Under the pieces are notes generated by a model. It did no database searches. It was given only the letters and a program-made list of their open reading frames with translations, and was not told the DNA's origin. The translations under genes were made by a program, and so were the position numbers. Positions 4,512-29,719 of a stretch of 39,118 bases of DNA are shown piece by piece (positions within the stretch are counted from its first letter, which is position 1; each line of letters starts with the position of its first letter). The stretch lies in IMG/VR virus record IMGVR_UViG_3300034341_000337, positions 1 through 39,118 of that record; one strand, written 5' to 3'. This DNA is from a virus (taxonomy: Duplodnaviria > Caudoviricetes).

Positions 4512-4520
4512 GAGATAAAA

Positions 4521-4964
4521 ATGAGACTTGATGGATTTAATGCGAGCGACTTTGCACCAAGCCAAAGCTATGAGCCGATCCCCGAAGGGACTTACAAGGC
4601 GGTCATTACTGAGTCGGAAGAAAAGCCGACAAAAGCAGGTACTGGCAGCTACATGCAACTGACTGTTGAGATCATCGACGGTCAGCACAGCGGACGTAAA
4701 CTGATTGACCGGCTCAATCTTAATAACCCTAACAAGGTGGCAGTGGATATCGCGCAGCGCACCTTGTCGTCTATCTGTCGCGCAACGGGTGTGATGACAC
4801 CGACTGACAGTCAGGAGCTGCACGACAAGCCTATGATGGTCAAAGTGGTTATTCGCCCGGCGCAGGGTGAGTATTCTGCCAGCAATGAGATTAAATCTTA
4901 CATGGTTGGTGAGAGCATTCCTGCACAAGCTGCTACAAACAGCAAGCCAAGCTGGGCGCGTTAG
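4521..4964 (+). CDS. DUF669-like single-stranded DNA-binding protein
   Basis: PIPEGTY, E.K.TKAGTG, LSSICRATG, NEIK motifs and C-terminal PSWAR; follows the Sak4-like gene. Confidence 0.82.
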   Translation: MRLDGFNASDFAPSQSYEPIPEGTYKAVITESEEKPTKAGTGSYMQLTVEIIDGQHSGRKLIDRLNLNNPNKVAVDIAQRTLSSICRATGVMTPTDSQELHDKPMMVKVVIRPAQGEYSASNEIKSYMVGESIPAQAATNSKPSWAR

Positions 4965-4965
4965 T

Positions 4966-5919
4966 ATGGACTTGTCGCGTTATGCAAATGCTAAGACCGT
5001 AGATGCCATTTACGAGCATTATCTCAAGACACGCGATGACTGGAGGCGTCCCCATTTGGGGGCGTCTCAAATAGGTAAAGAATGTGAGAGGGCGCTATGG
5101 TATCAGTTCCGCTGGAGCTGGGCGCCTGATCATGATGGCCGATTGCTACGCATGTTTGACACTGGCAACCATGAGGAAGCCAGGATTGTTGCTGATCTGA
5201 GGGCGATAGGTGTCAGAGTGTGGGAAGTTGACGATGCCACTGGCGAGCAGATTAATTTTAAAAGGTTTGGTGGTCACTTTGCTGCCAGTCTCGATGGCGT
5301 AGGCGCAGACTTTCCAGAAGGCAAGGAGTCGGCGGTCCTAGAGTTCAAAACTGCCAATGAGAAGAGTTTTAAAAGCACCAAGAAAGATGGTGTAGAGAAG
5401 TCAAAGCCCGTGTACTGGGCGCAGTGTCAGGTCAATATGTTACTGTCTGACCTGAACCGCTGCATGTTTGTCATGGTGAATAAGAACACTGACGAGATTT
5501 ACGTTGAGCGGATTAAATATGACAAGGCATATGCTGAAAGTCTGATTGCCAAGGCAGACAAGATTATATTTTCCGACAAGCCACTGACAAAGATCGCGGA
5601 AAGTGAAGATTGGTTTGCCTGCAAGTTTTGCGAGTATCGCCCGATCTGTCATCGAGGCATGGTGCCGGAAGTTAATTGCAGGACATGCGCCAAGGCAACG
5701 GTTGAGACAGATGGAAGCTGGACGTGTGGCGTTAGCGGCAAGATGTTGAGCATAACAGAGCAGAAGCAAGGCTGCGATAAGCACATATACAATCCATACG
5801 GCATGCCGTGGGGCGTTGTTGATGCGGGGGAGGACTGGGTTGAGTATGAGAGCGGAATCAGAAATGAAGGCAACAGCAAAGCCATTTACGCTGAGACCCT
5901 ATCAAAGGTCGGCGATTGA
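4966..5919 (+). CDS. Cas4-like PD-(D/E)xK exonuclease with Cys clusters
   Basis: HLGASQIGKEC, LDG, EFKT, YWAQCQ, CKFCEYRPIC, CRTC; start moved to ATG 4966, just after the upstream stop. Confidence 0.85.
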   Translation: MDLSRYANAKTVDAIYEHYLKTRDDWRRPHLGASQIGKECERALWYQFRWSWAPDHDGRLLRMFDTGNHEEARIVADLRAIGVRVWEVDDATGEQINFKRFGGHFAASLDGVGADFPEGKESAVLEFKTANEKSFKSTKKDGVEKSKPVYWAQCQVNMLLSDLNRCMFVMVNKNTDEIYVERIKYDKAYAESLIAKADKIIFSDKPLTKIAESEDWFACKFCEYRPICHRGMVPEVNCRTCAKATVETDGSWTCGVSGKMLSITEQKQGCDKHIYNPYGMPWGVVDAGEDWVEYESGIRNEGNSKAIYAETLSKVGD

Positions 5920-7444
5920 CAGCACATATGATTACTTATCTGGCGGCAAAGGCGAGAACCCCTTGATCGTGGCGCCTACGGGCGCAGGCAAGACAGCGAT
6001 CATCGCGCAGATAGTTAAAGATGCGTTAAAATGGGATGGCAGGATAATTATTCTGGCACATGTTAAGGAGCTGTTGCTGCAAGGGGTCGATGGTCTGCGT
6101 AAGATGTGTCCAGACGCTGACATTGGTTTGTACTCTGCCGGGTTAAAGAAAAAGCAGACTGACAAGCAGGTAACATTTGCTGGTATCCAGAGCATATACA
6201 ACAAGGCGGACAAGATAGGGGCAGCAGACATCATTTTGATTGATGAGGCGCATATGATCCCTCGCAGAAAAGATTCGCGCTACGGGTCGTTTCTGAGCCG
6301 TATGAGGGAAATAAACCCCAAGGTTAAGTTTATTGGTCTAACGGCAACGCCTTACAGGCTGGATAGTGGAATGTTGCATAAGGGTAAGCATGCAATGTTT
6401 GACGGAATTTCTTACGACATCAAGATTGGTGATCTGATCAATGATGGTTACTTGTCGTCTGTTGTTTCGAGGGCTGTGGATAAAGAGATTGATCTGACCA
6501 ATGTCCGCAAGACAGCGGGTGATTTTAATGAGCATGACCTGGCACTAGCTGCGTCTGATCCAGAGCTGGTTGCGTCTGCGGTTAGGGAGATAACGACATT
6601 AGGCAAGGACCGGAAGTCATGGTTGATATTTGCCAGTGGTGTTGATCACGCATATCTGGTGGCCGAAACTATCACTGATAAAGGTGTTCACAGTGAAGTT
6701 ATAACGGGTGAGTGTGACGCGGCCAGCAGGGCTGACAAGATCGCCAGGTTCAAGTCTGGTGAGTTGCGGTGCCTAATAAATGTTAATGTTCTGACAACGG
6801 GCTTTGATGCACCTAATATTGATTTGATTGCCATATTGAGGGCAACGGAAAGCACAGGCTTATATGTTCAGATTGTGGGGCGTGGTACGAGGCTGAACCC
6901 CGGCAAGAAAGATTGTCTCATTCTGGATTATGGCGGCAATGTTGATCGTCACGGCTTGATAGATGGACTAAGCCCCAAGAAGAAGGGTGGCGGCGGCGGT
7001 GGCGAGGCGCCTGTTAAGGTTTGCAAGAAATGTCAGAAGCATTGCCCGACAGGCTGTCTGGTTTGTCCGCATTGCGGTAATGAGTTTCCGCCCAGAGAGC
7101 TTAACCATGATCGCAGAAGTTATTCGGGGGCATTGCTGGGGCAAAGGGACGAGCCTGTCTGGCATAAAGTTGATGATGTCAGATACTACAGGCACGTTAA
7201 GAACGGAAAGCCTGACAGTGTTAAGGTGACTTATAGATGTGGTCTTAATTATTATTATGACTGGCTATGCCCTGAGCATGGCGGTTATGCGACCATGAAG
7301 TATCTTAAATTATGTCCGGTTCTAGGATCTACTGCGAAGAGTACAGAAGAGGCTCTCAGGCAGGCTCGCAATTGGAAGAAGCCAAGAATGATAATGGTGG
7401 TAAAAGATGGAAAATACGACAAGATCAAACAATTCCAATATTAG
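5864..7444 (+). CDS. Superfamily II DEAH helicase (RadD/YejH-like) with zinc ribbon
   Basis: LRPYQ, PTGAGKT, DEAH, TAT, LTTGFDAP, QIVGRGTR, CKKC..CPHC; likely start ATG 5864. Confidence 0.92.
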   Translation: MKATAKPFTLRPYQRSAIDSTYDYLSGGKGENPLIVAPTGAGKTAIIAQIVKDALKWDGRIIILAHVKELLLQGVDGLRKMCPDADIGLYSAGLKKKQTDKQVTFAGIQSIYNKADKIGAADIILIDEAHMIPRRKDSRYGSFLSRMREINPKVKFIGLTATPYRLDSGMLHKGKHAMFDGISYDIKIGDLINDGYLSSVVSRAVDKEIDLTNVRKTAGDFNEHDLALAASDPELVASAVREITTLGKDRKSWLIFASGVDHAYLVAETITDKGVHSEVITGECDAASRADKIARFKSGELRCLINVNVLTTGFDAPNIDLIAILRATESTGLYVQIVGRGTRLNPGKKDCLILDYGGNVDRHGLIDGLSPKKKGGGGGGEAPVKVCKKCQKHCPTGCLVCPHCGNEFPPRELNHDRRSYSGALLGQRDEPVWHKVDDVRYYRHVKNGKPDSVKVTYRCGLNYYYDWLCPEHGGYATMKYLKLCPVLGSTAKSTEEALRQARNWKKPRMIMVVKDGKYDKIKQFQY

Positions 7445-15214: not shown

Positions 15215-16131
15215 GTCACGCGGATCGCCATAACAATACAGCGACCAGATGTCCTAAACGCTGAATTCTGTGAGTATGGATTGAATGTTGTTCCACCTGC
15301 AAGTGTGCTTGCAAATAGACCGCCACAATGCCCAGTATCATCAAGCAATGTTGTATTACCTGTTCCTAATCTGTCAGAGTCATCGGCTCCATAGGCAATG
15401 GCTATAGTTGTCCATGTCCCGCCTGATGGCAGTGTAACTCCAGAGACTCCATCAAGATTAGTTGAGCCAACAAAAATAGCACCAATCTTGGTTGTATCTG
15501 TCGTGGCAATGCCTTCGCTCAAAATGGCCAACGCGCCTAGACCAAGATTAGTTCTAGCTGCGGCGGGTGTGCCTCCGCCCGTGCCACCATCTGCAACTGC
15601 CAGATCGGTTATGCCCGTGATTGTGCCGCCCGTGATCTGCACGTTGTTGGCGTCCTGATGCGCCATCTTAGTCGGACCAAGATCAAGATTAGCCCTTGCT
15701 GACGCTGCATTACCTGCACCCGTGCCGCCAGAAGCAATCTCAAGCGGTGACGTAAGACCGCTAATAGAGCCACCCGTGATCGACACAGCATTGCTGTTCT
15801 GGCTAGCCATAGAGCCAAGCGTCGATGTAGCGCCGTAGGTGTTATTCAGTGCGCTATAGACCAGCGTTCCAGTAACCGTTCTAACCGTCAGGCTGAAGTC
15901 ACTGGAGCCTGTGACGTACAACATGCCCGGAGAGCCGCTATAAGAAGGATAGCCACCAACAGTTCTGATCGGCTGACTGGCAGGTATCGTTCCACCCTCG
16001 TCCCAGAAAACAGAGATAGGATTAGTCTCAGCATCAGAACCCGCCGTGCCAATGTAGATGTAACCATTCTCCAAAGGACCACCAGTTGTGTCACGATAGT
16101 TTGGGTAGCTAGGTAATACTCTGATAGCCAT
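15211..16131 (-). CDS. Tail fibre with P22 tailspike head-binding-like N-terminus
   Basis: G.PLENGYIYIG...NPI.VFWD...QPIRT..GYP; repeated GGTG...AAR.NL and N.V.ITGG.I.G fibre motifs. Confidence 0.8.
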   Translation of the reverse strand: MAIRVLPSYPNYRDTTGGPLENGYIYIGTAGSDAETNPISVFWDEGGTIPASQPIRTVGGYPSYSGSPGMLYVTGSSDFSLTVRTVTGTLVYSALNNTYGATSTLGSMASQNSNAVSITGGSISGLTSPLEIASGGTGAGNAASARANLDLGPTKMAHQDANNVQITGGTITGITDLAVADGGTGGGTPAAARTNLGLGALAILSEGIATTDTTKIGAIFVGSTNLDGVSGVTLPSGGTWTTIAIAYGADDSDRLGTGNTTLLDDTGHCGGLFASTLAGGTTFNPYSQNSAFRTSGRCIVMAIRVT

Positions 16132-16134
16132 GAT

Positions 16135-18612
16135 TTATTGTCCTTGAATCGGTTGTCCGTCTCTCATTCCAGAGCCGCCTTGTGTGGGTAAGGAAACAGT
16201 TAAACCTCTAGGGGGCTGATCTTCAGATTTCTCTTCTTCCGGCCCTTGCTTTGCCGCCGCAATAGCAGAAACAATAAATGCTCTTGGGTCTCTTATGCCA
16301 TTTAATTTAGACCATTTTTTAAATGTAGAGTTACTTGCAAGGGCGTCTATTTGCTCTTGAGGTACAGCACCTGTTTCAATAACTTTTGTCATCATATTTT
16401 GGAAAGGTTGACTAGCAAACATTTCCCCAACCAAGTCAACTGTTTGCTTTCTTGCCTTAGAAGCTAATACATTAAATGCTCCTAAAGCAAGTGTACCAAA
16501 TAGCCATCCACCTCCAGCAGTCCCCGCAGCAAACGCACCAGCTCTAGCCGCAGTTCTGCCACCTACGCTATTAAAAAAAACTGAGAACAATCCTTGAGTC
16601 TGAAGACTTCGCGCCTTTAGAACTTGAACATTTTCTCGGCCTGTTTTTTCAATAGCTTCCTGTGAATTAGCAATTCTTCTTGATAAAATTGATAATTTAT
16701 TTAGCGTATTCATTTGTGAAGGCGTAAAATTCTGGATGTAAATTTTATAAACTTCAGATTGACTTTTAATTTTATCCCAAGAATCAGCAAAATTTTTAAA
16801 ACTAAAATTTCCTTCGGAATCTTTAGACATCTTCAACAAAGAAGACGCTAGTACTTGTGACTTTTTCTCAGGAGATTGAACCGCGTTAAGCAACCTTGTT
16901 ATATCAGAAGTATCACCTTTTTGTGCGCCTTCAGTGCCTATTCTTGTCAATTTAGATGCGATGCTTCCATTTTTGTCAGATCCAAAAAGATTAGCTATGT
17001 CGTCTTGAACGCTTTTCTTTCTAACAACCATTTCATCAGCTAAAGTAAGATCATCCAGGAAGTCATCACCTGCAAATCTTGAAATAGCTTCTCTATAATC
17101 ATTTTTAATAGCTTGATATACTAACCCAAGCTCACGCCCTGTTATGCTTGAAAAGCCATTAGGATCTGATTTTGACCACTTATTGCCTATTTGGCTTTTG
17201 AGCGAAAACAGTGTTGAAATTGATACTGGTTTGGCCTCTTGTTTTTCAGATCCAAAAAATCTTTTATAAAGGCTTAAAAGCCCAGGATTCATGTCTGTTT
17301 CAGGGTCAGCAGTTATAAAACGATTATATTCTTCTTGTAATAATTTTTTTAAATTTGGCGCATCGACCACAGTTTGTTCTGGGACTTGTTCGTTTATTTT
17401 ATCGTATATTTTTGATGATTTCTGAACAAGATCTCTTTCAATGTCAGAAAGCTCTTTATATACAGATCTGCTGACTTCAGAAATATCTTCGCTTGCCCCT
17501 AAATTAGTCATTAAGTCATCTGCTTTTGTAGACGCTAATTTAATGTCCTCATAAAATTCGTTTTTGATATCTGTTCCTGTTTTAGAACGAGCTATACCAG
17601 CAGCAGTTATGATTTCCGCACTGTCACTCAAAACGTCTTCTGGAACTGATATTCCTAATTCTACAGAGGCTTGCTTTGCCTCCAAATTTGTTTTTGCAAG
17701 ATTTGCTAAAGATTGCTGCGCTCTAGAATTTCCTCTGGCAGCGTTAATTATAATGTCTTGCCCTTCTTCAGACAAAACAACAGCTTTAGGCGCATCTCTA
17801 GTTGTTGGTGGAGGAATAACGTCTTCTTCTGCCGCTCTAACAGCAGGAGATGGTGCGTCGTCGGCTAAACTAGGAGGCGCTGGCTCGTCGGGTGCAAGGC
17901 GAGGAGAGGGAGTTCTGGGTCGCATAAAAGGCGCTCCACCAGCCAAACCTCCTGCTAAACCTGCTGCTAATTGAAGGCCAGCGCCACCACCCATTTCAGC
18001 AGCAGTTTCTGCCGCAACAGCTCCGGTGGCGGCACTAGCAAGTTGCGCCGTAGGAGAATCGGCTAAAGCACGACCTATAGATTCTCTGGCAGTAGTAGGG
18101 GCCATCCCAGCTTGCGCTCTAGTTGCTCCCTGCGCTCCCATTAAAGCCTTTCCTGCTTGTAAAGTAGGTGGAACACCTGTTGCCGCCGAAGCCGCTGTTC
18201 CAGCCAACTGCTCCGCAACTGTATCAGGCTCTTCAACGCCAAACTCAGTTAGCATTTTATTCAATGCTTCTGTAGGAGAACCAATGTTAGTTCCAAAAAG
18301 ATAATTTGTCAGATTAACCAGAGGATCAGCTACAAGTTGAGCGCCGACACCAGCAGTAAATCCAGCACCAGCACCAGCTAGTGTCCCAACGCCGGGAACA
18401 ACGCTCCCAGCCGTAGCTCCCGCTGCTGTTGTTGCGGCAGGTAAAGCTAATTGCCTTGTAGCCGCCCCAATCATACCACTTGTTGTGGTTCTTGGGCGAT
18501 CTTGAGCTTGAAGTTTTTCTATTTCACCAGAAATAATAGCTACATGTGTTCTGTTTCCAGCTTCACTTGCTTTAGTTAGCATTTCTTGTAACTGCTCTAA
18601 AGAGTAAGCCAT
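16135..18612 (-). CDS. Large DNA ejection/transfer protein (P22 gp16-like position)
   Basis: Ala/Gly-rich hydrophobic N- and C-terminal stretches, helical body; third ejection gene by synteny. Confidence 0.65.
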   Translation of the reverse strand: MAYSLEQLQEMLTKASEAGNRTHVAIISGEIEKLQAQDRPRTTTSGMIGAATRQLALPAATTAAGATAGSVVPGVGTLAGAGAGFTAGVGAQLVADPLVNLTNYLFGTNIGSPTEALNKMLTEFGVEEPDTVAEQLAGTAASAATGVPPTLQAGKALMGAQGATRAQAGMAPTTARESIGRALADSPTAQLASAATGAVAAETAAEMGGGAGLQLAAGLAGGLAGGAPFMRPRTPSPRLAPDEPAPPSLADDAPSPAVRAAEEDVIPPPTTRDAPKAVVLSEEGQDIIINAARGNSRAQQSLANLAKTNLEAKQASVELGISVPEDVLSDSAEIITAAGIARSKTGTDIKNEFYEDIKLASTKADDLMTNLGASEDISEVSRSVYKELSDIERDLVQKSSKIYDKINEQVPEQTVVDAPNLKKLLQEEYNRFITADPETDMNPGLLSLYKRFFGSEKQEAKPVSISTLFSLKSQIGNKWSKSDPNGFSSITGRELGLVYQAIKNDYREAISRFAGDDFLDDLTLADEMVVRKKSVQDDIANLFGSDKNGSIASKLTRIGTEGAQKGDTSDITRLLNAVQSPEKKSQVLASSLLKMSKDSEGNFSFKNFADSWDKIKSQSEVYKIYIQNFTPSQMNTLNKLSILSRRIANSQEAIEKTGRENVQVLKARSLQTQGLFSVFFNSVGGRTAARAGAFAAGTAGGGWLFGTLALGAFNVLASKARKQTVDLVGEMFASQPFQNMMTKVIETGAVPQEQIDALASNSTFKKWSKLNGIRDPRAFIVSAIAAAKQGPEEEKSEDQPPRGLTVSLPTQGGSGMRDGQPIQGQ

Positions 18613-18622
18613 CCAAAAAACC

Positions 18623-20023
18623 TTATTCTGATGTTACATTATAAATAGAGGCCATATCATCTAACATATCTTCTCTATCATTTGGGTCTAAGTTGATATA
18701 CTCAAATAGCGTTTTTAATTCTTCAACAGTTTGTTCCATTTCAGGAGTCCAACCCTCCCCAGCTCTAGCTTGTGAGTCTGTTATTAAACGAATTGTTCTT
18801 TCTTGCTTGTCTCGAACTGTTTCCGGTGAGTCATTATACCGAGGCATTATAGTCAACAATTGGTCTTTATATTGCTGACTCGTTACACCAGCACCAGTTG
18901 ACAGCCAAATAGCTGATCCTAATATCGCTGTGTATGCGTTCACAACTCTTTGTCGTTCTGATAAATTACGCATCCCTCTATAAGCCTCACCAGCTCCAAT
19001 CATATTAGCGAAAGCTTCTCCGCCTCCAGGTCTAGCTGCCCTAGGATTTTCGATCAGTGCATTAGCAATGTCTGATATATTCTGACTCATGCTTTCCATG
19101 TGCGATGCTGCTCTGGCTTCGTCTTCTCTTAATTCAGGAGCGGCGTTTGCAGCTTCCAGAGCATTTAATTCTATTTGTCCTGTTTGCGCATAAGTTAATT
19201 CAATTTGCGCGTTCATAAGTTGGTTTTCTAACTGCTGAGAAACTGGAAGATTCCTTGCTGTGATTTCAGCAATAGCAGCGTTAGTTTCTGTTAATTGCGC
19301 TTCCGCAGCGCTCTTTTGTTCTGCAAATTCTGCTTGGGCTTCAAAAATATCTGCTTGTGCTTCGAGGCTACGAAGGTCAAGCTTAGATTTAGGACTAAAA
19401 TATTCGTCCATTACTGCATTTTGTTCTGCATTTCCAAATTTAGCAGCTCCCAATCTTGCCTGCACTGCAATGTAGGCTGGGCCAAAAACATCTAATGCTT
19501 GTCTATGGCCTTGAAACATTCTTTGCATGTCTGGATTATCTTCTGTCGCAGCTATTCTTTCATCAAGAAAATTTTCTAGCATACTAGTATCACCAGTTTC
19601 GATTGCTTCTGTAGCAATAAAAGCCGCTTGAGAGTAGGCATTAAAAGATCTTGTGTTTTCTTCCTCTGTTTGCCTTTCCAACTGTTGTTGAAGAGGGCCA
19701 GCTATAGTTGGAAACCGTGCAATTACATTTTTAATGCGATCTTGAGAAACATATTCATTGTTGTTTAGATCTTCATATATGGCTGATACTAAGCCTCTAC
19801 CTTCGGCAATACGATTTTGTTCTGCTGTTACTATATCCATGCGCTGTTGAGCTTCTGACATTTCAAGCTCAGTAGCTCTTCTTTGAAGATCATCAGCTTC
19901 ACGCTGACGGCGCACCTCATCAAGCTGTTGCATCTGGCCAAAACCTGCCTGATAACCCTCCAGAGCCGCAGCCATAGGGTTCATAACCTGCATCTGGTAA
20001 TCAATTGGTGTAAGTCTTGCCAT
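18623..20023 (-). CDS. DNA ejection protein (P22 gp20-like position)
   Basis: PIDY...NP N-terminus, Q/E/A-rich helical sequence; synteny. Confidence 0.65.
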   Translation of the reverse strand: MARLTPIDYQMQVMNPMAAALEGYQAGFGQMQQLDEVRRQREADDLQRRATELEMSEAQQRMDIVTAEQNRIAEGRGLVSAIYEDLNNNEYVSQDRIKNVIARFPTIAGPLQQQLERQTEEENTRSFNAYSQAAFIATEAIETGDTSMLENFLDERIAATEDNPDMQRMFQGHRQALDVFGPAYIAVQARLGAAKFGNAEQNAVMDEYFSPKSKLDLRSLEAQADIFEAQAEFAEQKSAAEAQLTETNAAIAEITARNLPVSQQLENQLMNAQIELTYAQTGQIELNALEAANAAPELREDEARAASHMESMSQNISDIANALIENPRAARPGGGEAFANMIGAGEAYRGMRNLSERQRVVNAYTAILGSAIWLSTGAGVTSQQYKDQLLTIMPRYNDSPETVRDKQERTIRLITDSQARAGEGWTPEMEQTVEELKTLFEYINLDPNDREDMLDDMASIYNVTSE

Positions 20024-22149: not shown

Positions 22150-23558
22150 TAGAACCTCAACGGCTCTAACCGCGCCTCTAGTGCAGAAACCGTTATGAAG
22201 GCGTCAGAAGTGCCTCTGAAGCGTTGCCCTCTAAAGTTCTGCATCTTACCCATACCAACCCAGCGAAGGCGCTTGTCGCGCTGCCCTGACTTGCCAGCAA
22301 GGATTGTCTTAGGCTGTGACCAGTTCAGACCATCCAGCGTGTACTCTGTGGATATTCTGGGATCTTTGCCGACTGTGGTGCGTCCCGTCAGAGCTATCAG
22401 CTCAAGCTCGTGGACGATAGCACCGCGTCCCTCATTGTATAGGAACTGTGTGGTAAACTCCCAGCGCACAGGTTCGCCCCAATGCTCTGACTCTTCTGCT
22501 GACAAGTAGCCGATCTTGTTTGTGGCGGTGTCGCAGACGTTCCATCGATCATAAGCCCATGTAAGGTCTGTAGCGCGATAAGGCTCAATCTTGTTGAGAC
22601 CGGAAGACAGTTTGAACCATACGGGGAATTGCAGCACCTGACTTGCGGCTGCGTCAAATACAAGTGTGAAGCTGCCGGGTAGTGTGATGTGTAGGTGCTG
22701 GTGGCTTCGATCCACACGGGTACTCATAATGATGCGCGACAGCTCTTCCTCGCTATACTCTGCAAGAATGTCGTCAATTTCGCGTGTGCTGATTTTCTGC
22801 GTCTGTCCGCCCTTTGCGGCGATGTAGACAGCAGGGGCTTCATTGATGCCAGAACCCACAAAGGTAATCTGCTCCATGAATACGGTGCAGGCTTTGTTAC
22901 CTATTGTGCCTTTTTCAATCTGCGCTCCCGATATACGCTGAAAAGGAAAGCCAGCAGAGCCTGTGTTACGGAACACTTCGATTGTGTTTCGGTTCATGGC
23001 GTAGACTTCGTTACGCAGCTTCAGCAGGGCAACGATAGGGTCAGGTGAGATTTCCGACGAGCCGTATTTTAGCGGGTCAACGGAAAAGGGATCATTAAGT
23101 TCTGTGACAACGAGAAACTCGCCGTCTGTGGTCATGAAATAACCATCAATGAAGATAACGTCTTTGGCCGCGCCAAGGTCTACATCTGTCACCTGACGCA
23201 ACACACTGCCATCATAGAGCCATAGCTGGTCGTTTGACGTAATGGCGAGATGGGTGAACGAGTTCGTCATAGTGACACGATTTGTGCCGCCTATGGTTCC
23301 AACGGTAACAACGTCACCTGTATTAGTAATGAAGACTAGATCGTTCCCCAGGACGCGGTAGAGAACGCCATTCCAGTTAATGCCGCCACGGTTCAGGCCC
23401 GTGCCTGTGCTTAGTGTTTTAATGCCGTCAGCAGGTCGCAGATATCCGTTGCTGATGCCTTGGCCCATTGGGACGGGAACCAGATTGACGGGATATTCGG
23501 TGCGAAAATCAGCAGAAGAATCTGTCGTGATACCCGAAAAGATCGGCACTCGAACCAT
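22149..23558 (-). CDS. Tail hub / DNA stabilisation protein, P22 gp10-like
   Basis: PVNL.P, DGYF, E.SPD.I, TIEVF.N.G, DG.NWS motifs; size and synteny. Confidence 0.88.
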   Translation of the reverse strand: MVRVPIFSGITTDSSADFRTEYPVNLVPVPMGQGISNGYLRPADGIKTLSTGTGLNRGGINWNGVLYRVLGNDLVFITNTGDVVTVGTIGGTNRVTMTNSFTHLAITSNDQLWLYDGSVLRQVTDVDLGAAKDVIFIDGYFMTTDGEFLVVTELNDPFSVDPLKYGSSEISPDPIVALLKLRNEVYAMNRNTIEVFRNTGSAGFPFQRISGAQIEKGTIGNKACTVFMEQITFVGSGINEAPAVYIAAKGGQTQKISTREIDDILAEYSEEELSRIIMSTRVDRSHQHLHITLPGSFTLVFDAAASQVLQFPVWFKLSSGLNKIEPYRATDLTWAYDRWNVCDTATNKIGYLSAEESEHWGEPVRWEFTTQFLYNEGRGAIVHELELIALTGRTTVGKDPRISTEYTLDGLNWSQPKTILAGKSGQRDKRLRWVGMGKMQNFRGQRFRGTSDAFITVSALEARLEPLRF

Positions 23559-24187
23559 TACAACACCTCTTCTCGTATCACCTGTAGATTATTGGCGGAC
23601 GCTAGGTGATCAACATGTGCGCTACCACGAAGAGCCACGTCGTCCACAACAGGATCGCTACTAACAAGTAAAACTGAACGAAGTCCATTGATGTCCTCCT
23701 CCGAATAGTTTTCCAGCATGGCTGTGATGTACTGATTGTAGATCGCTAGATCACGCTCGACCTCTTGTGCCTTTACCTGCGCCCATGCGCGTTCGCGTGT
23801 GGCAGCGTTGTAAGCGTTGATAGGCGCACGAATGGCAGTTAGCTGTTCGTGGTATGCAGCCTTGTCAGCCTCAAAGGTTTCGCTTTCAGCGTCAGGATAG
23901 ATAAGGGCAGCTTCCGCTGTGGCAAGGGCTTCATATTGCTCCTCTGTAAGCGGCGTAGGCTCGTCAGGAATGGTTGGCACCTCATCTGGCTGTCCTGTTA
24001 CCAGCCACAGGAAATGCTTACGAGCGGTGGCGTGCAGCCCTTTATGTGTAGGTTCGCCTGTACCATCAGCGGATAGCGGGATGGAGAACCCAGCCTTGTA
24101 GCCAATGGAACCTGCCATCTGGTCAACCGCGTCTATCTGATCGACAGGGCAGATGATTACGAGGGATCGAACTGTGTATTCGGTCAT
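23558..24187 (-). CDS. Hypothetical tail-associated protein (209 aa)
   Basis: ATGA overlap with the upstream stop gives start 24187; F..PLSADG..EPTH.G motif. Confidence 0.7.
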   Translation of the reverse strand: MTEYTVRSLVIICPVDQIDAVDQMAGSIGYKAGFSIPLSADGTGEPTHKGLHATARKHFLWLVTGQPDEVPTIPDEPTPLTEEQYEALATAEAALIYPDAESETFEADKAAYHEQLTAIRAPINAYNAATRERAWAQVKAQEVERDLAIYNQYITAMLENYSEEDINGLRSVLLVSSDPVVDDVALRGSAHVDHLASANNLQVIREEVL

Positions 24188-25806
24188 GAGGTTTTCTTTC
24201 CTATCATGAAGTTTTCTAAGAGATCGCGGCCACGACCATCGAGGCGGGTGTCCACTGCGGCCCATGCGTAGAGGCGGCCTGTGGAGTTGTAATTAGAGTT
24301 TGAATATTCACCACCAATGTAGAAGCCGCTGGATGCCCATGTTGAACTTGCCGAAAGATCTGCTTCCTCCACACCAATAGTATGGTCTGTATTGTCTACA
24401 AGAGCCGTAAAAAGGTCACCGCGATTGGCATAGGAAGGTATTACGCCGTCCTCTCGATATACAGGGGAGCCTACAGAGCTGTTTGAGACTGTGGTGGTTC
24501 CGCTCGTATCTGCTGCAAGAATAAAAGGCCCCAAATTCGTCCCAAACATAACCTGCTGCACATCCGTCGTATCCCCACGGAACGTCTTATACAGCGTTGC
24601 ATTACTTGAGGCTGCAATCGTATCGGCATCTAGGATTAGATTGTCATCCGCACCGTCAAAGTCGAGGTAATATCCCGTGTCAGGATGGTTCTCGTCATAG
24701 GTTGCATCCCCGAAGTGCCAAGTGACACCCGACTGAACAGACTGCTGGGACCATGCGCGGAGGATGTTGTTGTATTCCTGCGTGGAAAGGGCGTTGTTGG
24801 CACCACTGAGGAAACTTGTTCCGTTAGTTACACTTGAGACATCCCAGCCGCTAATCTGAAGGCCGGTGAGGCTAAGGCAGCCGTTGAACATCGACGACAT
24901 ATTGGTAACGCTAGAGGTATCGAACCCTGAGACGTCCAGAGATGTTAGGCCGGAGCAGACCGAGAACATTCCAGACATAGTCGTAACACTAGATGTGTTG
25001 AACCCAGAAAGATCCAAGGATGTTAGGCTAGAGCAACTTTGGAACATTGACGACATATTCGTAACGCTAGACACATCAAAACCAGAGACATTTAAGGATG
25101 TTAGGCTAGAGCAGTTTCGGAACATATTCCGCATATTCGTAACACTCGAAGTATCAAAACCAGAGACATTTAAAGATGTTAGGCTGGAGCAGCCTTGGAA
25201 CATCTCCCGCATATTCGAAACGCTAGACACATCAAAACCAGAGACGTCCAAGGATGTTAAGCCGGAGCAGTTGAGGAACATCCGGAACATATTCAAAACA
25301 CTGGATGTATCAAAGCCAGAAAGATCCAAAGATGTTAAGCTGGCGCAGCTTTGGAACATATAGGTCATGTTCGTAACACTGGATGTGTCAAAGCCAGAAA
25401 GATCCAAAGATGTTAAGCTGGAGCAGTTGAGGAACATCTGCTGCATAGTCGTAACACCAGACGTATCCGCTGTACCACCATCAAACGCTGTCATATTGGA
25501 GCAGCCATAGAAGGCTCTATCCAAACGTGTCCACCCGACATCCCCGAGGTCCACCACCTCATCTACCAGCAGTCGGTCCCCGCCGTTGTTGAAGTAAATA
25601 TTCGGGAACGTCCCCGTGATCGTGATGGTGTATTGCCCCGCCGTTGCATAGCTGTGGGCTAGGTCTGCATCATTGTAAGCTGTGATACTGGAGGTTGGCC
25701 CACCGTCGCCCCAGTCAATCGTAGCGTTGAATGTGCCTACGTTCTGACAGGGGATCGTGAAGGTCTGAGGGCTTCCGGTGGTGGTGATCTTGAAGATAAA
25801 GGCCAT
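24184..25806 (-). CDS. PKD-like plus BspA/DUF285-type leucine-rich repeat protein fused to the C-half of a tail lectin-like domain
   Basis: DWGDG motif; 8 x 26-aa DTSSVTNM..MF..CSSLTSLD.SGF repeats; YYLDFDGADD. Confidence 0.85.
   Translation of the reverse strand: MAFIFKITTTGSPQTFTIPCQNVGTFNATIDWGDGGPTSSITAYNDADLAHSYATAGQYTITITGTFPNIYFNNGGDRLLVDEVVDLGDVGWTRLDRAFYGCSNMTAFDGGTADTSGVTTMQQMFLNCSSLTSLDLSGFDTSSVTNMTYMFQSCASLTSLDLSGFDTSSVLNMFRMFLNCSGLTSLDVSGFDVSSVSNMREMFQGCSSLTSLNVSGFDTSSVTNMRNMFRNCSSLTSLNVSGFDVSSVTNMSSMFQSCSSLTSLDLSGFNTSSVTTMSGMFSVCSGLTSLDVSGFDTSSVTNMSSMFNGCLSLTGLQISGWDVSSVTNGTSFLSGANNALSTQEYNNILRAWSQQSVQSGVTWHFGDATYDENHPDTGYYLDFDGADDNLILDADTIAASSNATLYKTFRGDTTDVQQVMFGTNLGPFILAADTSGTTTVSNSSVGSPVYREDGVIPSYANRGDLFTALVDNTDHTIGVEEADLSASSTWASSGFYIGGEYSNSNYNSTGRLYAWAAVDTRLDGRGRDLLENFMIGKKTS
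24844..25467 (-). repeat. Eight degenerate 78-bp coding tandem repeats (LRR)
   Basis: 78-nt periodicity, e.g. recurring GATGTTA(A/G)GC on the + strand. Confidence 0.9.
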
Positions 25807-28745
25807 TATGCTCTGCCTCCGTCCGTTATGTTCCAGCCATAGGTCGTGGTTAGAACCTCCCTAGAGCTGATTGGGGAATTGTAAGATGCAAGGTTTGGAC
25901 GGGCTGAGTCCGATGGGGCTATGGCTGCGTGGGAGGAGATTTCTTTGACGGAATAAGAAACAGTCATTTGAGCAGCGCCAGACGTTCTTAACTGTACGTT
26001 GCCACCAGCGCCGGGCGTAAACACAAAAGACGTACTAGATGAAAAATAATTTGTGTTTTGCCCAGACTTAAACTCTAGCCTAACATTACCGCTAACGTAA
26101 TTAGATATGGTGACAACAATCTCGTACAGTGTACCGCTGCTTAAAGAAATAGGCTGACCATTAACAACCGTTGCGCTTCCCACATTAACATCAACAGAAG
26201 ATGTATCTGCAAGCTCAGGCCGCGCTGCTGTCGCCGCAGCAACCGTAGCACCACCCGTGTCGGATACGTCTAGCATCATGCCCACAGGATCGCCATCAAC
26301 AGGGACACCGCCTGAACCATTACGGCCCACGCGAAGAGATGTCTTGTCATTGATGTCAAACAATACAGCACCCGTCTGGGCAGCTAGAAGCTCGTAGACA
26401 TCTGCGTATTCAGTCACGTCTGGCGGATCAATAGGAGGCTGTGTGGTCGTGCCTAGATAGTCTTGCAGGACTGTCAGCTCGTCATAGTCTACTTGGCCTT
26501 GGCCCCATGAGCCGCCGTAGAAGCGGCCGTCGAGGCCTGCGGCAAAGCGTAGGTTCCACTGAGTGAACAGCGCAAGACCTTGCGTGTCGCCACTATCATC
26601 GTATGGCGTAATGACCCCTGCGCTATTCGCCCCGTTTGACCGTCCAGATATGCTGTTTGTACCAGCCTGCTCGATAGTCAGAACTTGTTTGTCTTGCGCG
26701 TTAAGGGTCGTAAGATCAACTTGAGCGCTGCTGGAATTGTACCAAGCCCAACCGCCACCATGCCTTACCGCTCCACGATGATCACTTGACGTGCCAAAAG
26801 CCCGCTTCCCTGAACCATCACTCTGCCAAGCCCCCACATGCCACCACTGCTCGCCAAGGTTAAGCGTCGGCTTGACCTCCATCCAGTCGTCTACCCCATC
26901 AGTGTCGAGGTAGTATTTGCGGTCTATGCTGGCGGGGAGTTCTTGGACGATTACGTTGTCGATGGAGCCTTCAAAAGACAAACCTTGCATAAACAAGTAA
27001 GAGCTTCCAGAGCAGCGTATATATTCTGAATGCCAACCTGTTGACGAGACAGAGGTTCCAATACCACCTGCCCCAACAATCGGTCTTATTTGACCGCTAG
27101 TGTATGCGGAAACGTAGAACTGCACAAAGTACCATCTATTCTGCACAATGCTAATTTCATTTGCAGTGCGAAGATTAGAGTTCCCTGCGCCCGTGCGACT
27201 CGCCACCCCACTCCCAATGCTCCAGCCTGTGCCTTTGGTCCAATTACTATCAGTATCAAATGTGCCGTTGGTGACGAGGTTGGGGGTTAGGACTTGTTTG
27301 ACGGAGCCTGCTTGGGTTGTTGTTGTGGATCCAAGCGGCTTTAATGTAACGTAAGTTGTTGTACTTGTTGCAACAAACGTAACGACATTATCTGTTGCGC
27401 CATTAAGGTTTGCAGAATAAAGTTGCGTCCCCAGCGCCGACGTTCCAACATTTAAAGCAACTTGCACCGCGCCCGTGTTGCTAACAATCCACTCGTAAGT
27501 GCCACCAATAACAGTCGTAATCTCATGATAGGCGCGGTCAAAGTTTCCGCCGTTGTCGCGATATAGTGTAATCACCCCATCAGATACCGAAGGAGTGCCA
27601 GACGGATTGCCAAAATCATCGAAAATCCAACCACCATCCGACACCAACTCCGCCCCCCGCTCATCAAACGCGGTTAGGACTTTGCGGACGGAGATGTTGG
27701 AAAACGTTGCACCAAGTGGGGACAGAGGACGAATTGAGAAATACTGATTTCCATCAATAGCTCGGATTTTGACGCTATACGTTCCGTCTGCTGCGGTGCC
27801 GTCTACTGTCTGGGCATCCAAGTCATTTGTGGCGTTGTCCGCCAACTGCATACGGTATGTGCCAGCAGTGTAATTCGATAGAGTGTACGTGATTTCATAC
27901 TCCGCCCCGCTTTCCAAAACGCAGGCGAAGGCGCATCTTGGTCCGCCACCAGACGACACCTGAGAAGTGTAAGAGCCATCGCCGTTGTCAATCCAGTCCG
28001 ATTGCGTTTCAGCGGTGACGCCATCAATCAACTCCTCCCCCCGCTGCCCATTATCCGTAAGCGCAGCAGCCGTCAGGTCGGGATCGTCGAAAAGGACAGG
28101 TCGGGCAGAATCAGATGGGGCTATCGCGTGGTGGCCGGGGATTTCTTTTACGGTAAAAGTAACATCTAAATCTGTAAGATTTCCGCCCCACTCAATCATG
28201 CGAACGATAGCTGTCGACCCGTCAGATTGAAATACAAAATTGTGAATACCAACACCTAAAGCGCCTACGTTGCCTCCCGAAACCGGCCTTATGGTTATGT
28301 TGTCACCTGAAATAGAAGCAATGTTTACGGTAACTTCATAAAACCTTCCGCTTACACCGTCAAATTGGCCGTTTATTGTTTGCGATGTGGCAGGTGTACC
28401 GTTACTTAATGTAAACCTTCCGCCACCTTCATTAACTATTTCACCGAAAACACTAGCTGCTCCGTCTGCAAACTCGTTTGTCGCCCCAGCCAGATAATCC
28501 TCTGCGGTCTTGCCTCCGAGCTGTGAGGTGTCAAGCATGACCCCAACAGGATCACCCACCACAGGCTGACCACCGGAACCGTCCGTGCCTACCCTCAAGG
28601 ACGTCAAATCAGCAGGATCGTAAAAGACGTTGGTGTTGCTGGCGGCTTCTTCTTTTTGAAGAATATCAAAAAACTGGCTTGCAATTGATTTCACCAACGA
28701 CATGACGCCGCGAAAACGGAACCTAAAACGCGAACGTCCTGTCAT
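25806..28745 (-). CDS. Modular tail/adhesin protein with a duplicated LamG-like scaffold and inserted beta-sandwich modules
   Basis: Two copies each of TSLRVG..GSGG.PV.GDPVG.MLD.S and AIAPSDSARP.L; modules such as LVTNGTFDTDSNWTKGTGWSI; YYLDTDGVDD. Confidence 0.75.
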   Translation of the reverse strand: MTGRSRFRFRFRGVMSLVKSIASQFFDILQKEEAASNTNVFYDPADLTSLRVGTDGSGGQPVVGDPVGVMLDTSQLGGKTAEDYLAGATNEFADGAASVFGEIVNEGGGRFTLSNGTPATSQTINGQFDGVSGRFYEVTVNIASISGDNITIRPVSGGNVGALGVGIHNFVFQSDGSTAIVRMIEWGGNLTDLDVTFTVKEIPGHHAIAPSDSARPVLFDDPDLTAAALTDNGQRGEELIDGVTAETQSDWIDNGDGSYTSQVSSGGGPRCAFACVLESGAEYEITYTLSNYTAGTYRMQLADNATNDLDAQTVDGTAADGTYSVKIRAIDGNQYFSIRPLSPLGATFSNISVRKVLTAFDERGAELVSDGGWIFDDFGNPSGTPSVSDGVITLYRDNGGNFDRAYHEITTVIGGTYEWIVSNTGAVQVALNVGTSALGTQLYSANLNGATDNVVTFVATSTTTYVTLKPLGSTTTTQAGSVKQVLTPNLVTNGTFDTDSNWTKGTGWSIGSGVASRTGAGNSNLRTANEISIVQNRWYFVQFYVSAYTSGQIRPIVGAGGIGTSVSSTGWHSEYIRCSGSSYLFMQGLSFEGSIDNVIVQELPASIDRKYYLDTDGVDDWMEVKPTLNLGEQWWHVGAWQSDGSGKRAFGTSSDHRGAVRHGGGWAWYNSSSAQVDLTTLNAQDKQVLTIEQAGTNSISGRSNGANSAGVITPYDDSGDTQGLALFTQWNLRFAAGLDGRFYGGSWGQGQVDYDELTVLQDYLGTTTQPPIDPPDVTEYADVYELLAAQTGAVLFDINDKTSLRVGRNGSGGVPVDGDPVGMMLDVSDTGGATVAAATAARPELADTSSVDVNVGSATVVNGQPISLSSGTLYEIVVTISNYVSGNVRLEFKSGQNTNYFSSSTSFVFTPGAGGNVQLRTSGAAQMTVSYSVKEISSHAAIAPSDSARPNLASYNSPISSREVLTTTYGWNITDGGRA

Positions 28746-28748
28746 TTA

Positions 28749-29051
28749 TCAATATCCTTCGCCTTGGATCATATGCAAAGTTGTAGAGTCGCTGCCAGCG
28801 CAGACATAAGCAATGTGTGTGTCATCCTGAAACTTGCTGATCGTGACTTGGCTCCCGCCAAGGACAGCATAGTCTGCCGCTGTTGCTGTGATACCAGATA
28901 TGCCGATACGCACATAACAGACCTTCTCGCCCGTATTGGTCAGGCAGATTGTCTTGCTCTTAAATCCCAGCTCTGTGCTTGCACTTGTTGAGCTAACAGA
29001 AGCCGTAGCGCCGCGTCCGTAAGCTGGTGCGAATGTTTGATCGATAGCCAT
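28749..29051 (-). CDS. Small beta-rich virion protein
   Basis: SD GGAGGT; conserved-looking C-terminus LH...GEG; structural context. Confidence 0.7.
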   Translation of the reverse strand: MAIDQTFAPAYGRGATASVSSTSASTELGFKSKTICLTNTGEKVCYVRIGISGITATAADYAVLGGSQVTISKFQDDTHIAYVCAGSDSTTLHMIQGEGY

Positions 29052-29719
29052 TAAATTACCTCCACGGCATTACGTCTAAGCCAATCGAGGCTACCGTGCA
29101 ATCTTGTATGCAAAGCACGGTCAGCATCGCTTGCTAAATTCATCATAATCTTGTTTGTCAGTGCGTTGTAAAGGGCCAGCAATTCTGCGGCTGTAGATCC
29201 GAACGCCTGATCCTCCCGGAACAAGTCAGAAAGCTCTTCCGGCACCACATCCGGTTCTGGCTCCGGTTCCGGTTCTGGCTCTGGTTCTGGCTCAGGTTCC
29301 GGCTCTGGTTCAGGTTCTTCAACAACAGGCTCTTCTTCAACTGGTGGCTCCTCAATCTTAGGCGCACCATAACGCGGCGGCTCTGCGGGGATGTCTGACA
29401 ATACACCGTTAACAATGTCCCGCAATTGCTGACGCCAGAACTTCCATTCAGGGTTCAGAGCCAGATCCTGCTCTGACGCTTTGGCAACAATGTGATCTGT
29501 CCCAGCCAACAGCCGTAGCGCCTGCTTGGGGAGCAGCACACACTTCTCGTGCTTGCCACCATCCTCATCTTCCACAATCTCTGCGGTGTCCTCATATGCA
29601 CCCGCAGGCAAAGGGTTAAGAATGCGTTGATCCTTGTCCCTAACAAATGCCCAGGGTCCGATATTAATGACCTTGCCTTCGGCATCTCGTACAACTTGCA
29701 TCATCATATCGCGACCCAT
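29051..29719 (-). CDS. Tail fibre assembly chaperone-like protein with (EP)11 linker
   Basis: LLAGTD.......W..WRQQLRDI motif; EP repeat. Confidence 0.6.
   Translation of the reverse strand: MGRDMMMQVVRDAEGKVINIGPWAFVRDKDQRILNPLPAGAYEDTAEIVEDEDGGKHEKCVLLPKQALRLLAGTDHIVAKASEQDLALNPEWKFWRQQLRDIVNGVLSDIPAEPPRYGAPKIEEPPVEEEPVVEEPEPEPEPEPEPEPEPEPEPEPDVVPEELSDLFREDQAFGSTAAELLALYNALTNKIMMNLASDADRALHTRLHGSLDWLRRNAVEVI
29252..29317 (-). repeat. Coding 6-bp repeat, (Glu-Pro)x11
   Basis: GARCCN x11 with varied wobble bases. Confidence 0.9.

What the first reader, a model, noticed from the sequence alone, without database searches (positions are those of the whole stretch)
24184..28745. Two adjacent tail genes with swapped C-termini: a circularly permuted PKD-LRR gene inserted into a tail domain
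Seen: the 979-aa protein has one complete scaffold copy (...AIAPSDSARPVL...YYLDTDGVDD...). Its second copy breaks after AIAPSDSARPNL and ends ASYNSPISSREVLTTTYGWNITDGGRA. The missing half (GYYLDFDGADD...LLENFM) is at the end of the next gene, right after the LRR cap LSTQEYNNILRAWSQQSVQSGVTWHFGDATY. From family knowledge, PKD/BspA-DUF285 proteins normally continue from that cap into ...R..L...YGW.ITDGG, which here lies upstream of its own start codon. Both junctions share a codon-aligned core: TGCATCTTACAAT (ASYN, 25890-25878) and TGCAACCTATGAC (ATYD, 24706-24694), 8/13 identical and 1184 bp apart. Removing that segment gives an intact 1125-aa tail protein plus a circle encoding exactly one 394-aa LRR gene whose stop overlaps its own start (TAATG at 25806). 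Inference: integration of a single-gene circle, or capture across a tandem LRR pair, produced two chains that must interlock to complete both folds. This would be an unusual way to attach a new receptor-binding module.
Basis: partly seen in the sequence, partly recalled or inferred. Interest (0 to 1): 0.85.

Follow-up and report, generated by a model that had tools for sequence, protein, structure and literature searches.

The report
Permuted repeat gene interlocks phage proteins
In a family of marine phages, a repeat-protein gene sits inside a lectin-like protein gene with its own end placed in front of its start, so each of the two resulting proteins carries a piece of the other; they are predicted to clip together and finish both folds, likely adding a variable binding arm to the virus particle.

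Summary
The swap is real. Gene A ends with the last 27 residues of a PKD–PARCEL (DUF285) repeat protein. Gene B carries the rest of that protein, then the missing half of A's second lectin-like scaffold.

Contigs bridge both junctions with no differences. 34 of 47 relatives of B's C-terminus and 5 of 10 of A's share the swap. A complex model scores 0.89 (controls 0.00) and contains both reciprocal interfaces.

- The 8/13 DNA core is chance-level and not conserved.
- The site is a hairpin slot that in relatives holds either a short loop or carbohydrate-binding modules.
- "Tail" rests on context only.

New: one clade of this cassette, opened in the same cap loop, also splits a scaffold at a different position (both genes seen). 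It also joins a third scaffold family (downstream gene only).

Best reading: a gene circle integrated once, then spread as a block, giving an interlocked heterodimer that displays a variable repeat arm. Binding and function are untested. This scan noted the same kind of arrangement before on other phage DNA with other folds; my paper searches found no description.

The parts
25806..28745 (-). Gene A, 979 aa: one whole lectin-like scaffold with inserted CBM-like modules, the N-half of a second scaffold, then the LRR-cap tail
28083..28673 (-). Scaffold copy 1, N-part (with one CBM-like passenger), up to its hairpin slot
   Evidence: tblastn with P0052
26922..28082 (-). CBM-like passenger modules filling the slot of scaffold copy 1 (boundaries approximate)
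   Evidence: CBM_4_9 in relatives P0003, L002; contigs of X5 replace these blocks
26454..26918 (-). Scaffold copy 1, C-part (YYLD...LQDYL; boundaries approximate)
25890..26402 (-). Scaffold copy 2, N-half (A 782-952), including one CBM-like passenger at about A 845-935
   Evidence: collinear with P0052 122-330; passenger fold Z 13-15 to CBM4/16/22 in the P0052 model
24707..25890 (-). The 1184-bp permuted PKD-PARCEL segment: cap tail, stop/start, PKD, repeats, first half of cap
25878..25890 (-). Junction 1 (scaffold N-half to cap tail); sequence varies among relatives
25809..25889 (-). LRR-cap tail on chain A (A 953-979): last helix and last strand of the intact fold
25804..25820 (-). GGAGG Shine-Dalgarno-like motif within the DGG codons and the TAATG stop/start overlap; the usual 3' end of intact donor-type genes
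24184..25806 (-). Gene B, 540 aa: leaderless PKD-like domain, 26-residue PARCEL repeats, first half of cap, C-half of scaffold copy 2
25522..25803 (-). PKD-like domain (PKD_4 17.4 bits, under its cut-off of 27)
24788..25545 (-). 78-bp-period repeat array (PARCEL/DUF285); repeat number varies among relatives
24697..24816 (-). First half of the LRR C-terminal cap (B 331-370), ending FGDATY
24694..24706 (-). Junction 2 (cap to scaffold C-half); ATYD invariant in 35 aligned proteins
24187..24672 (-). Scaffold copy 2, C-half (B 379-540)
   Evidence: 65% identical to P0052 338-497; feature look-alikes include Laminin_G_3 clusters at 0.93-0.94
23558..24187 (-). Downstream gene (ATGA-coupled to B) that travels with the module in the related loci inspected; function not identified

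Best explanation
A PKD-PARCEL repeat gene lies opened in its C-terminal cap loop inside a hairpin slot of a lectin-like phage scaffold gene, and the two resulting proteins are predicted to fold together as an interlocked pair that likely displays the repeat arm on the virion as a variable binding module.

Shown: gene order, swapped termini, spread among relatives, three allele states of the slot, other insertion sites.

Predicted (about 0.8): A's tail supplies the last helix and strand of B's cap, B's C-half completes A's second scaffold, and TAATG coupling gives roughly 1:1 synthesis.

Inferred origin (about 0.55): a donor gene closed into a circle running from just ahead of the PKD's first strand to just past its stop. 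The circle took along the donor's own Shine-Dalgarno and the next gene's ATG and lost the donor's leader. It integrated by a short-homology crossover in the cap loop. The block then moved between scaffolds by relaxed recombination; the phage encodes a Sak4-like annealing protein.

Inferred reason it is kept: the slot needs an insert whose two ends lie close together. An elongated solenoid cannot offer that with its natural termini, but can when opened in the cap loop and broken at its natural ends.

Inferred function (about 0.65): adhesion or receptor binding, as an alternative to the carbohydrate-binding modules that fill the slot in sister alleles.
For: Complex of B 230-540 with A 780-979: ipSAE 0.89 (median of three runs), best of 3 controls 0.00. 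Runs agree in at least 82% of contacts, partner pLDDT is at least 82, and the mark was reached by 116 of 157 solved and 2 of 215 mismatched pairs (counts only rough for own alignments). Partner pLDDT falls to 58 when B is replaced.

In the intact relative P0058 (pLDDT 91), the break falls in the loop between strand 318-319 and helix 324-334, and the tail is modelled at pLDDT 97-98. In uninterrupted P0052 the slot is the turn between strands 328-331 and 338-341 (model pLDDT only 59).

17 of the tail's 27 residues are invariant in the 11-row alignment, where mean column identity is 41%. Window vs L090 shows 8 synonymous and 4 replacement codons; window vs L088 shows 10 and 7.

The slot has three states in 43 of 47 relatives: 34 LRR cassette, 6 CBM modules, 3 short loop. 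L102 has the same cassette about 15-20 residues further along a homologous scaffold, whose intact form is in Pseudomonas phage vB_PsaM_M1. Seven proteins join the cap to a third scaffold at its own passenger slot. All 19 permuted rows plus intact P0058 form one branch, SH-aLRT 99 (quick tree).

Intact genes often end GGAGG...TAATG (GGAGG in 28 of 33 rows, TAATG two codons after DGG in 11 of 33). The full-length permuted B genes start directly at the PKD's first strand, whereas intact units carry leaders. P0188 carries about 70 residues inserted in the same cap loop in one chain. Sak4-like gene at 3759-4511.
Against: The complex is a model of two halves of split domains, which tend to pass. The tool gives one score for both interfaces; the 25 best pairs listed are all in the scaffold interface, none in the cap interface.

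L088 vs L090 shows 4 synonymous and 6 replacement codons in the tail, which is weak constraint. Part of the tail's conservation may come from the Shine-Dalgarno it encodes.

The DNA core is chance-level in the window, and the TYD duplicate is only 7 of 8 bases in one lineage. No circle or excision joint was seen. For the third scaffold the upstream gene was never seen, so its permuted state is half-shown. Class II rests on one contig (L102) and one protein cluster (P0057). The tree is the quick one, and its one-clade test did not finish.

No direct evidence shows that A or B is in the virion or binds anything.
Confidence: 0.7

Rival explanations
1. Same interlocked product, but no free circle: one period was captured from a tandem pair of PKD-LRR genes, or from a multi-unit protein whose linker then gained the stop/start, by two crossovers at the same cap-loop microhomology.
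For: Multi-unit proteins with cap tail linked to the next PKD are common (L020/L021, P0067, P0074, P0077). Tandem genes exist (L062, L074). The product would be identical at both junctions.
Against: No intact, leaderless, TAATG-coupled pair was found among the fetched loci; the tandem genes seen start with long leaders. The multi-unit proteins fall outside the permuted clade. The GGAGG...TAATG end is already the native 3' end of single genes.
Confidence: 0.3
2. In-place reshuffling: an ancestral one-chain fusion (scaffold, then PKD-LRR-cap) recombined between its own slot and cap loop, and the excised piece re-entered downstream.
For: Such intact fusions exist for the third scaffold family (L118, L023, L028, P0128, P0204). 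One reciprocal crossover would create both junctions.
Against: No such fusion was seen for the window's scaffold. The LRR units of those fusions lie outside the permuted clade. It would have to happen separately for each scaffold.
Confidence: 0.1
3. The chains do not interlock. A's tail is a relic kept for B's ribosome-binding site, and each chain works alone or through homo-oligomers.
For: GGAGG lies in the tail's DGG codons. One pairwise comparison shows weak constraint. No bench data exist.
Against: Conservation covers the helix residues far upstream of the Shine-Dalgarno. Both scaffold halves stay open and conserved in all carriers inspected. A's half models poorly without B, and the model finds both interfaces. 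L102 independently keeps a tail of the same extent (19.5 bits).
Confidence: 0.12
4. An actively switching, site-specific cassette (integron- or shufflon-like) that excises and reinserts at an att-like core.
For: The cassette is opened at the same cap loop in three scaffold sites. Alleles with and without it co-occur in runs X8 and X13 (loose ends at 24669-24671).
Against: The core is not conserved within class I or between classes. No integrase or serine recombinase catalytic domain was found in 42 of the 84 ORFs scanned against Pfam. No 24706-25890 joint was listed in 8 runs (9 joints not shown, and contigs drop rare forms). The co-occurring allele has CBM modules, not the empty site.
Confidence: 0.05
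5. Assembly artefact at the repeat array.
For: The contigs of X1-X3 break inside the repeat array, at 25314-25417.
Against: Both junctions lie outside that break and are bridged with 0 differences. Five independent contigs and dozens of diverged proteins have the same junctions.
Confidence: 0.01

Closest known systems
Aeromonas phage Aeh1 nrdA split by mobE (PMC3045599; abstract and outline read)
   Same: A phage gene is cut in two by an inserted gene. The fragments carry tails that arose with the insertion and assemble non-covalently into a working protein.
   Different: There the insert is a free-standing homing endonuclease and only the host is split. Here the insert is itself split and permuted, both folds are completed across chains, and the insert looks like a selected binding module, not a selfish nuclease.
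Fractured genes with split inteins (PMC2677866; abstract and outline read)
   Same: A gene-in-pieces arrangement in environmental phages, with a gene inserted between the halves.
   Different: No intein and no endonuclease here (Pfam). Rejoining is predicted to be by fold complementation, not trans-splicing, and the targets are structural or adhesion domains, not DNA enzymes.
PARCEL / DUF285 repeat proteins (PF03382, TIGR02167; PMC2996958 abstract and outline; a phage example in PMC7765460, passages)
   Same: B carries these repeats far above the cut-offs; variable repeat number; horizontal spread.
   Different: B has no lipoprotein or other leader and lacks its cap's end, which is on the upstream gene. 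The parts of these papers that I read describe no permuted or split form.
Ordinary domain insertion of CBM4_9-like modules into ConA/LamG-like phage scaffolds (sister alleles P0002, P0009, L002, L003)
   Same: Same slot and same scaffold; the passenger sits as a branch.
   Different: Those passengers keep one polypeptide. The LRR passenger is permuted and brings a stop/start.
Permuted segments left by integration of DNA circles (for example yeast region B; name taken from scan note e1-9753798, paper not read)
   Same: Head and tail of the inserted piece are swapped.
   Different: Here the integration keeps both reading frames and yields two chimeric proteins that are maintained across diverged phages.

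Membership tests
PARCEL/DUF285 repeat protein | Tandem 25-26-residue repeats above the curated cut-off | tested here: met
   DUF285 209 bits vs 25; TIGR02167 289 vs 30; 78-bp period
PKD-PARCEL-cap unit (intact type, P0058) | Cap first half followed in the same chain by the helix and W.I.DGG strand | tested here: not met
   No tail hit in B; the hit is at the end of A. It works like the unit only in trans.
PKD domain | Pfam PKD/PKD_4 match at the gathering score | tested here: inconclusive
   PKD_4 17.4 bits vs 27; all-beta N-terminal domain in the P0058 model
ConA-like/Laminin_G_3 scaffold | Profile or fold match | tested here: inconclusive
   No Pfam hit for A, B's C-half or P0052. Weak Laminin_G_3 hits for the intact homologues P0217 and P0218 (E 0.007, 0.013). 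Atlas features 0.93-0.94. Fold searches were filled by the CBM passenger.
CBM4_9-like passenger modules | Jelly-roll CBM profile or fold | tested here: met
   For relatives: P0003 CBM_4_9 45.5 vs 25.9 bits; P0052 180-314, Z 13-15, rmsd 2.2-2.9, 124-132 aligned. The window's own passengers have no Pfam hit.
Genes-in-pieces, nrdA/mobE type | Host gene split into two ORFs by an inserted gene | tested here: met
Genes-in-pieces, nrdA/mobE type | Insert is an intact free-standing homing endonuclease | tested here: not met
   The insert is a permuted PKD-PARCEL gene
Genes-in-pieces, nrdA/mobE type | Fragments assemble into a functional protein | not testable with these tools
   Model only
Split-intein fractured genes | Intein halves at the breaks | tested here: not met
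   No intein/Hint family at E <= 0.01 in A or B; junction residues map to scaffold and cap
Site-specific cassette (integron/shufflon) | Conserved recombination core at both ends | tested here: not met
Site-specific cassette (integron/shufflon) | Cognate recombinase and excised forms | tested here: inconclusive
   None in 42 of 84 ORFs scanned; no joint listed, but contigs drop rare forms
Phage tail / receptor-binding protein | Match to a tail family, or presence in the virion | tested here: inconclusive
   No PHROG hit for A. It lies between a tailspike and P22 gp10-like genes. The same scaffold is fused to a minor tail domain (P0052) and a baseplate wedge domain (P0053).

The most novel reading that the evidence does not exclude
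A circularly permuted, self-starting adhesin cassette acts as a reusable clip-on module in marine phages. It drops into loops of different lectin-like structural domains, splits each into two chains that lock through mutual fold completion, and so lets phages branch long repeat arms from sites that cannot take an ordinary insert. This would be a general route of protein evolution: mutual domain insertion across two chains.
Probability: 0.55. Interest if true: 0.88.

Novelty: new variant of a known kind. Interest (0 to 1): 0.78.

Why it matters
Gene insertion normally breaks a gene or needs splicing to repair it. Here both the host and the insert are cut, each appears to repair the other, and the arrangement has spread and persisted beside ordinary alleles. 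It gives a concrete, testable path from a DNA circle to an obligate heterodimer, and a rule for how elongated domains can be grafted into loops. The natural series makes the test direct: empty slot, CBM slot, permuted LRR slot, intact donor-type gene, and second and third insertion sites. It also warns that annotation will miscall such pairs as two unrelated hypothetical proteins.

Tried and rejected
- The 8/13 core as a recombination signature: chance-level and not conserved.
- A programmed -1 frameshift fusing A and B: the frame relation is the same in 7 of 7 loci (offset -1 or +2), but none has a slippery heptamer of the tested form in the last 40 codons, and the -1 frame has stops within 25 codons.
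- DNA pattern for the stop/start junction: 0 hits in viral contigs and 8 in genome contigs, all unrelated on translation.
- Cultured phages: no record covers 80% of A or B, and all best places are under 60% identity. The best B matches listed cover the PKD/repeat part only; Brucella phage hits cover A 489-630 at 32%.
- Upstream genes of class III: not obtained. Scans returned intact scaffolds or unrelated LRR genes, and the cluster look-up gave no accessions.
- Junction 1 in the records behind L010, L011, L086, L001: these contigs end before it; L102's record is not held.
- In X5, X7, X8 and X13, pieces reach only to 25913. That is 30 bases past the point where the alleles diverge, one short of the tool's bridging rule, so they are not counted as bridging.
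- The 100-aa gene upstream of A as a head-spike base like that of RcGTA (recalled idea): no support.
- Fold of the scaffold itself: both searches were filled by the CBM passenger; the sequence search of PDB gave only a CBM at E 0.025.
- Careful tree and one-clade test: not finished; the quick tree was used, on 59 of 79 distinct units (class I thinned from 33 to 13). My pattern mislabelled P0059 as intact (it is class III) and left two intact rows ungrouped. Five rows labelled permuted (L124, L127, L128, L129, L132) are mislabelled intact caps (seen for L124 and L127) and were left out of the 33.
- Literature: searches listed nothing on reciprocal permuted-gene insertion in phage structural genes (listings only; the library lacks most subscription papers). 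No supplements were opened.
Full report
Setting. The window is a 39-kb record of a P22-like podovirus: portal, scaffold, coat, gp4-like adaptor, tailspike, gp10-like stabiliser, gp7-like ejection protein and endolysin. Runs that hold the stretch are mostly marine or seawater metagenomes. A weak GcrA-like hit hints at an alphaproteobacterial host (E 2e-5, under cut-off). Genes A (25806-28745) and B (24184-25806) lie between the tailspike region and the gp10-like gene and overlap at TAATG.

B is a PKD-like domain, PARCEL/DUF285 repeats and the first half of the family's C-terminal cap. In intact relatives the cap continues with a short loop, a helix and a W.I.DGG strand. Of 318 cap first halves in 133 of 150 distant representatives, 302 are followed by that tail by one pattern, and 15 of the 16 misses by eye (a second pattern gave 288). 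In the window the tail is not in B but at the end of A: 25.3 bits against at most 4.7 in 200 shuffles. After its half cap, B continues with a 160-residue piece 65% identical to the C-half of the uninterrupted scaffold of P0052, whose N-half matches A 782-952.

It is not an assembly error. Contigs of X1, X2 and X3 (one study, possibly the source) cross both junctions with no differences and break only inside the repeat array. X10 and X13, from other studies, bridge junction 2. Five of 15 metagenome loci hold both junctions on one contig. No joint skipping the segment was listed in 8 runs, but contigs drop rare forms and 9 joints were not shown.

It is a widespread allele of a three-state slot. 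Of 47 proteins related to B 320-540, 34 have the same cap-to-scaffold junction, 6 have CBM-like modules in the slot, 3 have a short 8-residue loop, and 4 are other architectures. Of 10 relatives of A 776-979, 5 end in the cap tail at 43-55% identity; three are CBM alleles (one truncated), one is a fragment and one a distant relative. Full-length B relatives run from 435 to 620 aa through repeat number. Both alleles co-occur in runs X8 and X13, where loose ends at 24669-24671 read as the CBM allele. Gene A itself is a mosaic: contigs of X5 keep the conserved posts and replace six blocks between them. In the model of the short-loop allele the slot is a hairpin turn (mean pLDDT 59, so low confidence), and the passenger is a CBM4/16/22-like jelly roll. 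The scaffold is probably ConA/LamG-like, but my tests are inconclusive.

The core. The 8/13 match is not evidence: 9% to 52% of random position pairs reach it. Junction 1 reads ASYN, ATEN, KTYN or RTYD in different carriers. The window's AS codons are identical to those of the CBM allele in L003/L024, which suggests a later crossover between alleles. L088 and L092 keep TYD on both sides (7 of 8 bases), a weak hint of the original microhomology.

The same cassette sits elsewhere. In L102, gene 1 ends with a scaffold fragment and a cap tail (19.5 bits), TAATG follows, and gene 2 (P0057) runs from the cap into the rest of the scaffold. The intact scaffold is a protein of Pseudomonas phage vB_PsaM_M1: gene 1 matches its residues 6-240 and gene 2 its residues 245-377. 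This site lies after the YL.FDG.DD motif, whereas the window's lies before it, so it is a separate insertion point. Seven proteins (P0055, P0056, P0059-P0063) join the half cap to the C-half of a third scaffold family, where L104 ends a CBM passenger; their upstream genes were not seen. In a quick tree of 59 units, all 19 permuted rows and the intact P0058 form one branch (SH-aLRT 99) with the three classes intermixed (careful search and clade test unfinished). P0188 has about 70 residues inserted in the same cap loop within one chain, so the loop tolerates inserts.

How the chains likely work. In the model of intact P0058 (pLDDT 91) the break point is the loop before the last helix and strand, which are modelled at 97-98. 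The complex of B 230-540 and A 780-979 scored 0.89 against 0.00 for the best of 3 controls. Runs agreed in at least 82% of contacts and partner pLDDT was at least 82; in calibration the mark was reached by 116 of 157 solved and 2 of 215 mismatched pairs, roughly applicable here. The interface lists include the cap patch (B 342-372, A 960-979) and the scaffold patch (B 376-397 and 495-539, A 780-828 and 939-957), and A's piece drops to pLDDT 58 without B. Caveats: halves of split domains tend to pass, the 25 best-resolved pairs are all in the scaffold, and a model is not binding. The closest solved folds for the repeat unit are distant LRRs (best E 2e-4), so recall of a like complex is not obvious but is not excluded. 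The tail is conserved, with 17 of 27 positions invariant in the 11-row alignment. Synonymous changes exceed replacements in window-vs-L090 (8:4) and window-vs-L088 (10:7), but not in L088-vs-L090 (4:6). From general knowledge of solenoids, N- and C-termini lie at opposite ends. An intact unit therefore could not sit in a hairpin turn, whereas one opened in the cap loop can, provided the chain is broken at its natural ends; this step is inference, as no distance was measured.

Origin. Intact genes of the family commonly end with GGAGG in the DGG codons (28 of 33 rows) and TAATG two codons later (11 of 33). Full-length permuted B genes start directly at the PKD's first strand, while intact units have leaders or upstream domains. 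The simplest reading is a circle closed between the start of the PKD and the donor's downstream ATG, which supplies a ready ribosome-binding site and start codon. One crossover in the cap loop followed, then spread as a block. The phage encodes a Sak4-like annealing protein and a Cas4/RecE-like exonuclease; the abstract start of PMC5499656 says such proteins recombine diverged DNA. Tandem capture gives the same product and is not excluded: tandem units exist, but none of the leaderless coupled kind was found. One-chain scaffold-plus-LRR fusions exist for the third family but fall outside the clade. No integrase or serine recombinase catalytic domain was found in 42 of 84 ORFs scanned.

Function. 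Virion location is inferred from neighbours and from fusions of the same scaffold to a minor tail domain and a baseplate wedge domain. The module also occurs next to terminase genes in other phages, so 'tail' may be too narrow. Exchange with carbohydrate-binding modules and hypervariable repeats point to adhesion or receptor binding. Nothing was tested.

Comparison and novelty. The closest published kinds are Aeh1 nrdA split by mobE (PMC3045599, abstract and outline) and split-intein fractured genes (PMC2677866, abstract and outline); in both, the inserted endonuclease gene stands free and only the host gene is split. PARCEL repeats are known (PMC2996958, abstract and outline), also in a phage (PMC7765460, passages). 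Eight searches listed no paper on reciprocal permuted insertion in phage structural genes. This scan's notes hold four like arrangements with other folds in other phages (unchecked, not independent evidence) and none for this family. I file it as a new variant of genes-in-pieces, with a better than even chance that it is a general, undescribed route of module capture.

Noticed in passing
L102 962-3426 (P0057): Second insertion site of the same permuted cassette, in a homologous scaffold of a phage with a different gene context; both genes and the TAATG overlap seen.
   Followed up: yes
P0055, P0056, P0059-P0063; L104 3966-5456; L118 3528-6710: Third scaffold family joined to the half cap at its passenger slot; intact one-chain scaffold-PKD-LRR fusions also exist. 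Upstream genes of the chimeras were not seen.
   Followed up: partly
P0188, about residues 628-700: About 70 residues inserted into the same cap loop within a single chain.
   Followed up: no
window 25949-28480: Gene A is a mosaic of conserved posts and exchangeable blocks; contigs of run X5 replace six blocks.
   Followed up: partly
P0052, P0053: The same scaffold is fused to a lambda-like minor tail domain and to a baseplate wedge domain, so the module moves between phage morphotypes.
   Followed up: partly
window 23558-24187: Unannotated gene of about 210 aa, ATGA-coupled to B, found downstream in the class I loci inspected whatever the slot holds.
   Followed up: no
window 28749-29051: 100-aa gene directly upstream of A; look-alike of large unnamed viral clusters. 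No support found for a head-spike base.
   Followed up: partly
window 3759-5919, 1037-3310, 5816-7444: Sak4-like annealing protein, DUF669, Cas4/RecE-like exonuclease, helicase and primase-polymerase module.
   Followed up: no
window 29051-29719: Protein with a (PE)n tract and a weak tail-fibre-assembly hit.
   Followed up: no
window 16000-20000: Lower G+C (0.35-0.46 in most 500-base bins) over the ejection-protein region.
   Followed up: no
window 28900-28920: Contigs of X1, X2 and X5 differ from the window at four bases where X3 agrees: strain variation in the source population.
   Followed up: no
L090, L091, L094 at the stop/start: A 3-base insertion moves B's ATG from offset -1 to +2, keeping the frame relation; no slippery site found.
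   Followed up: partly
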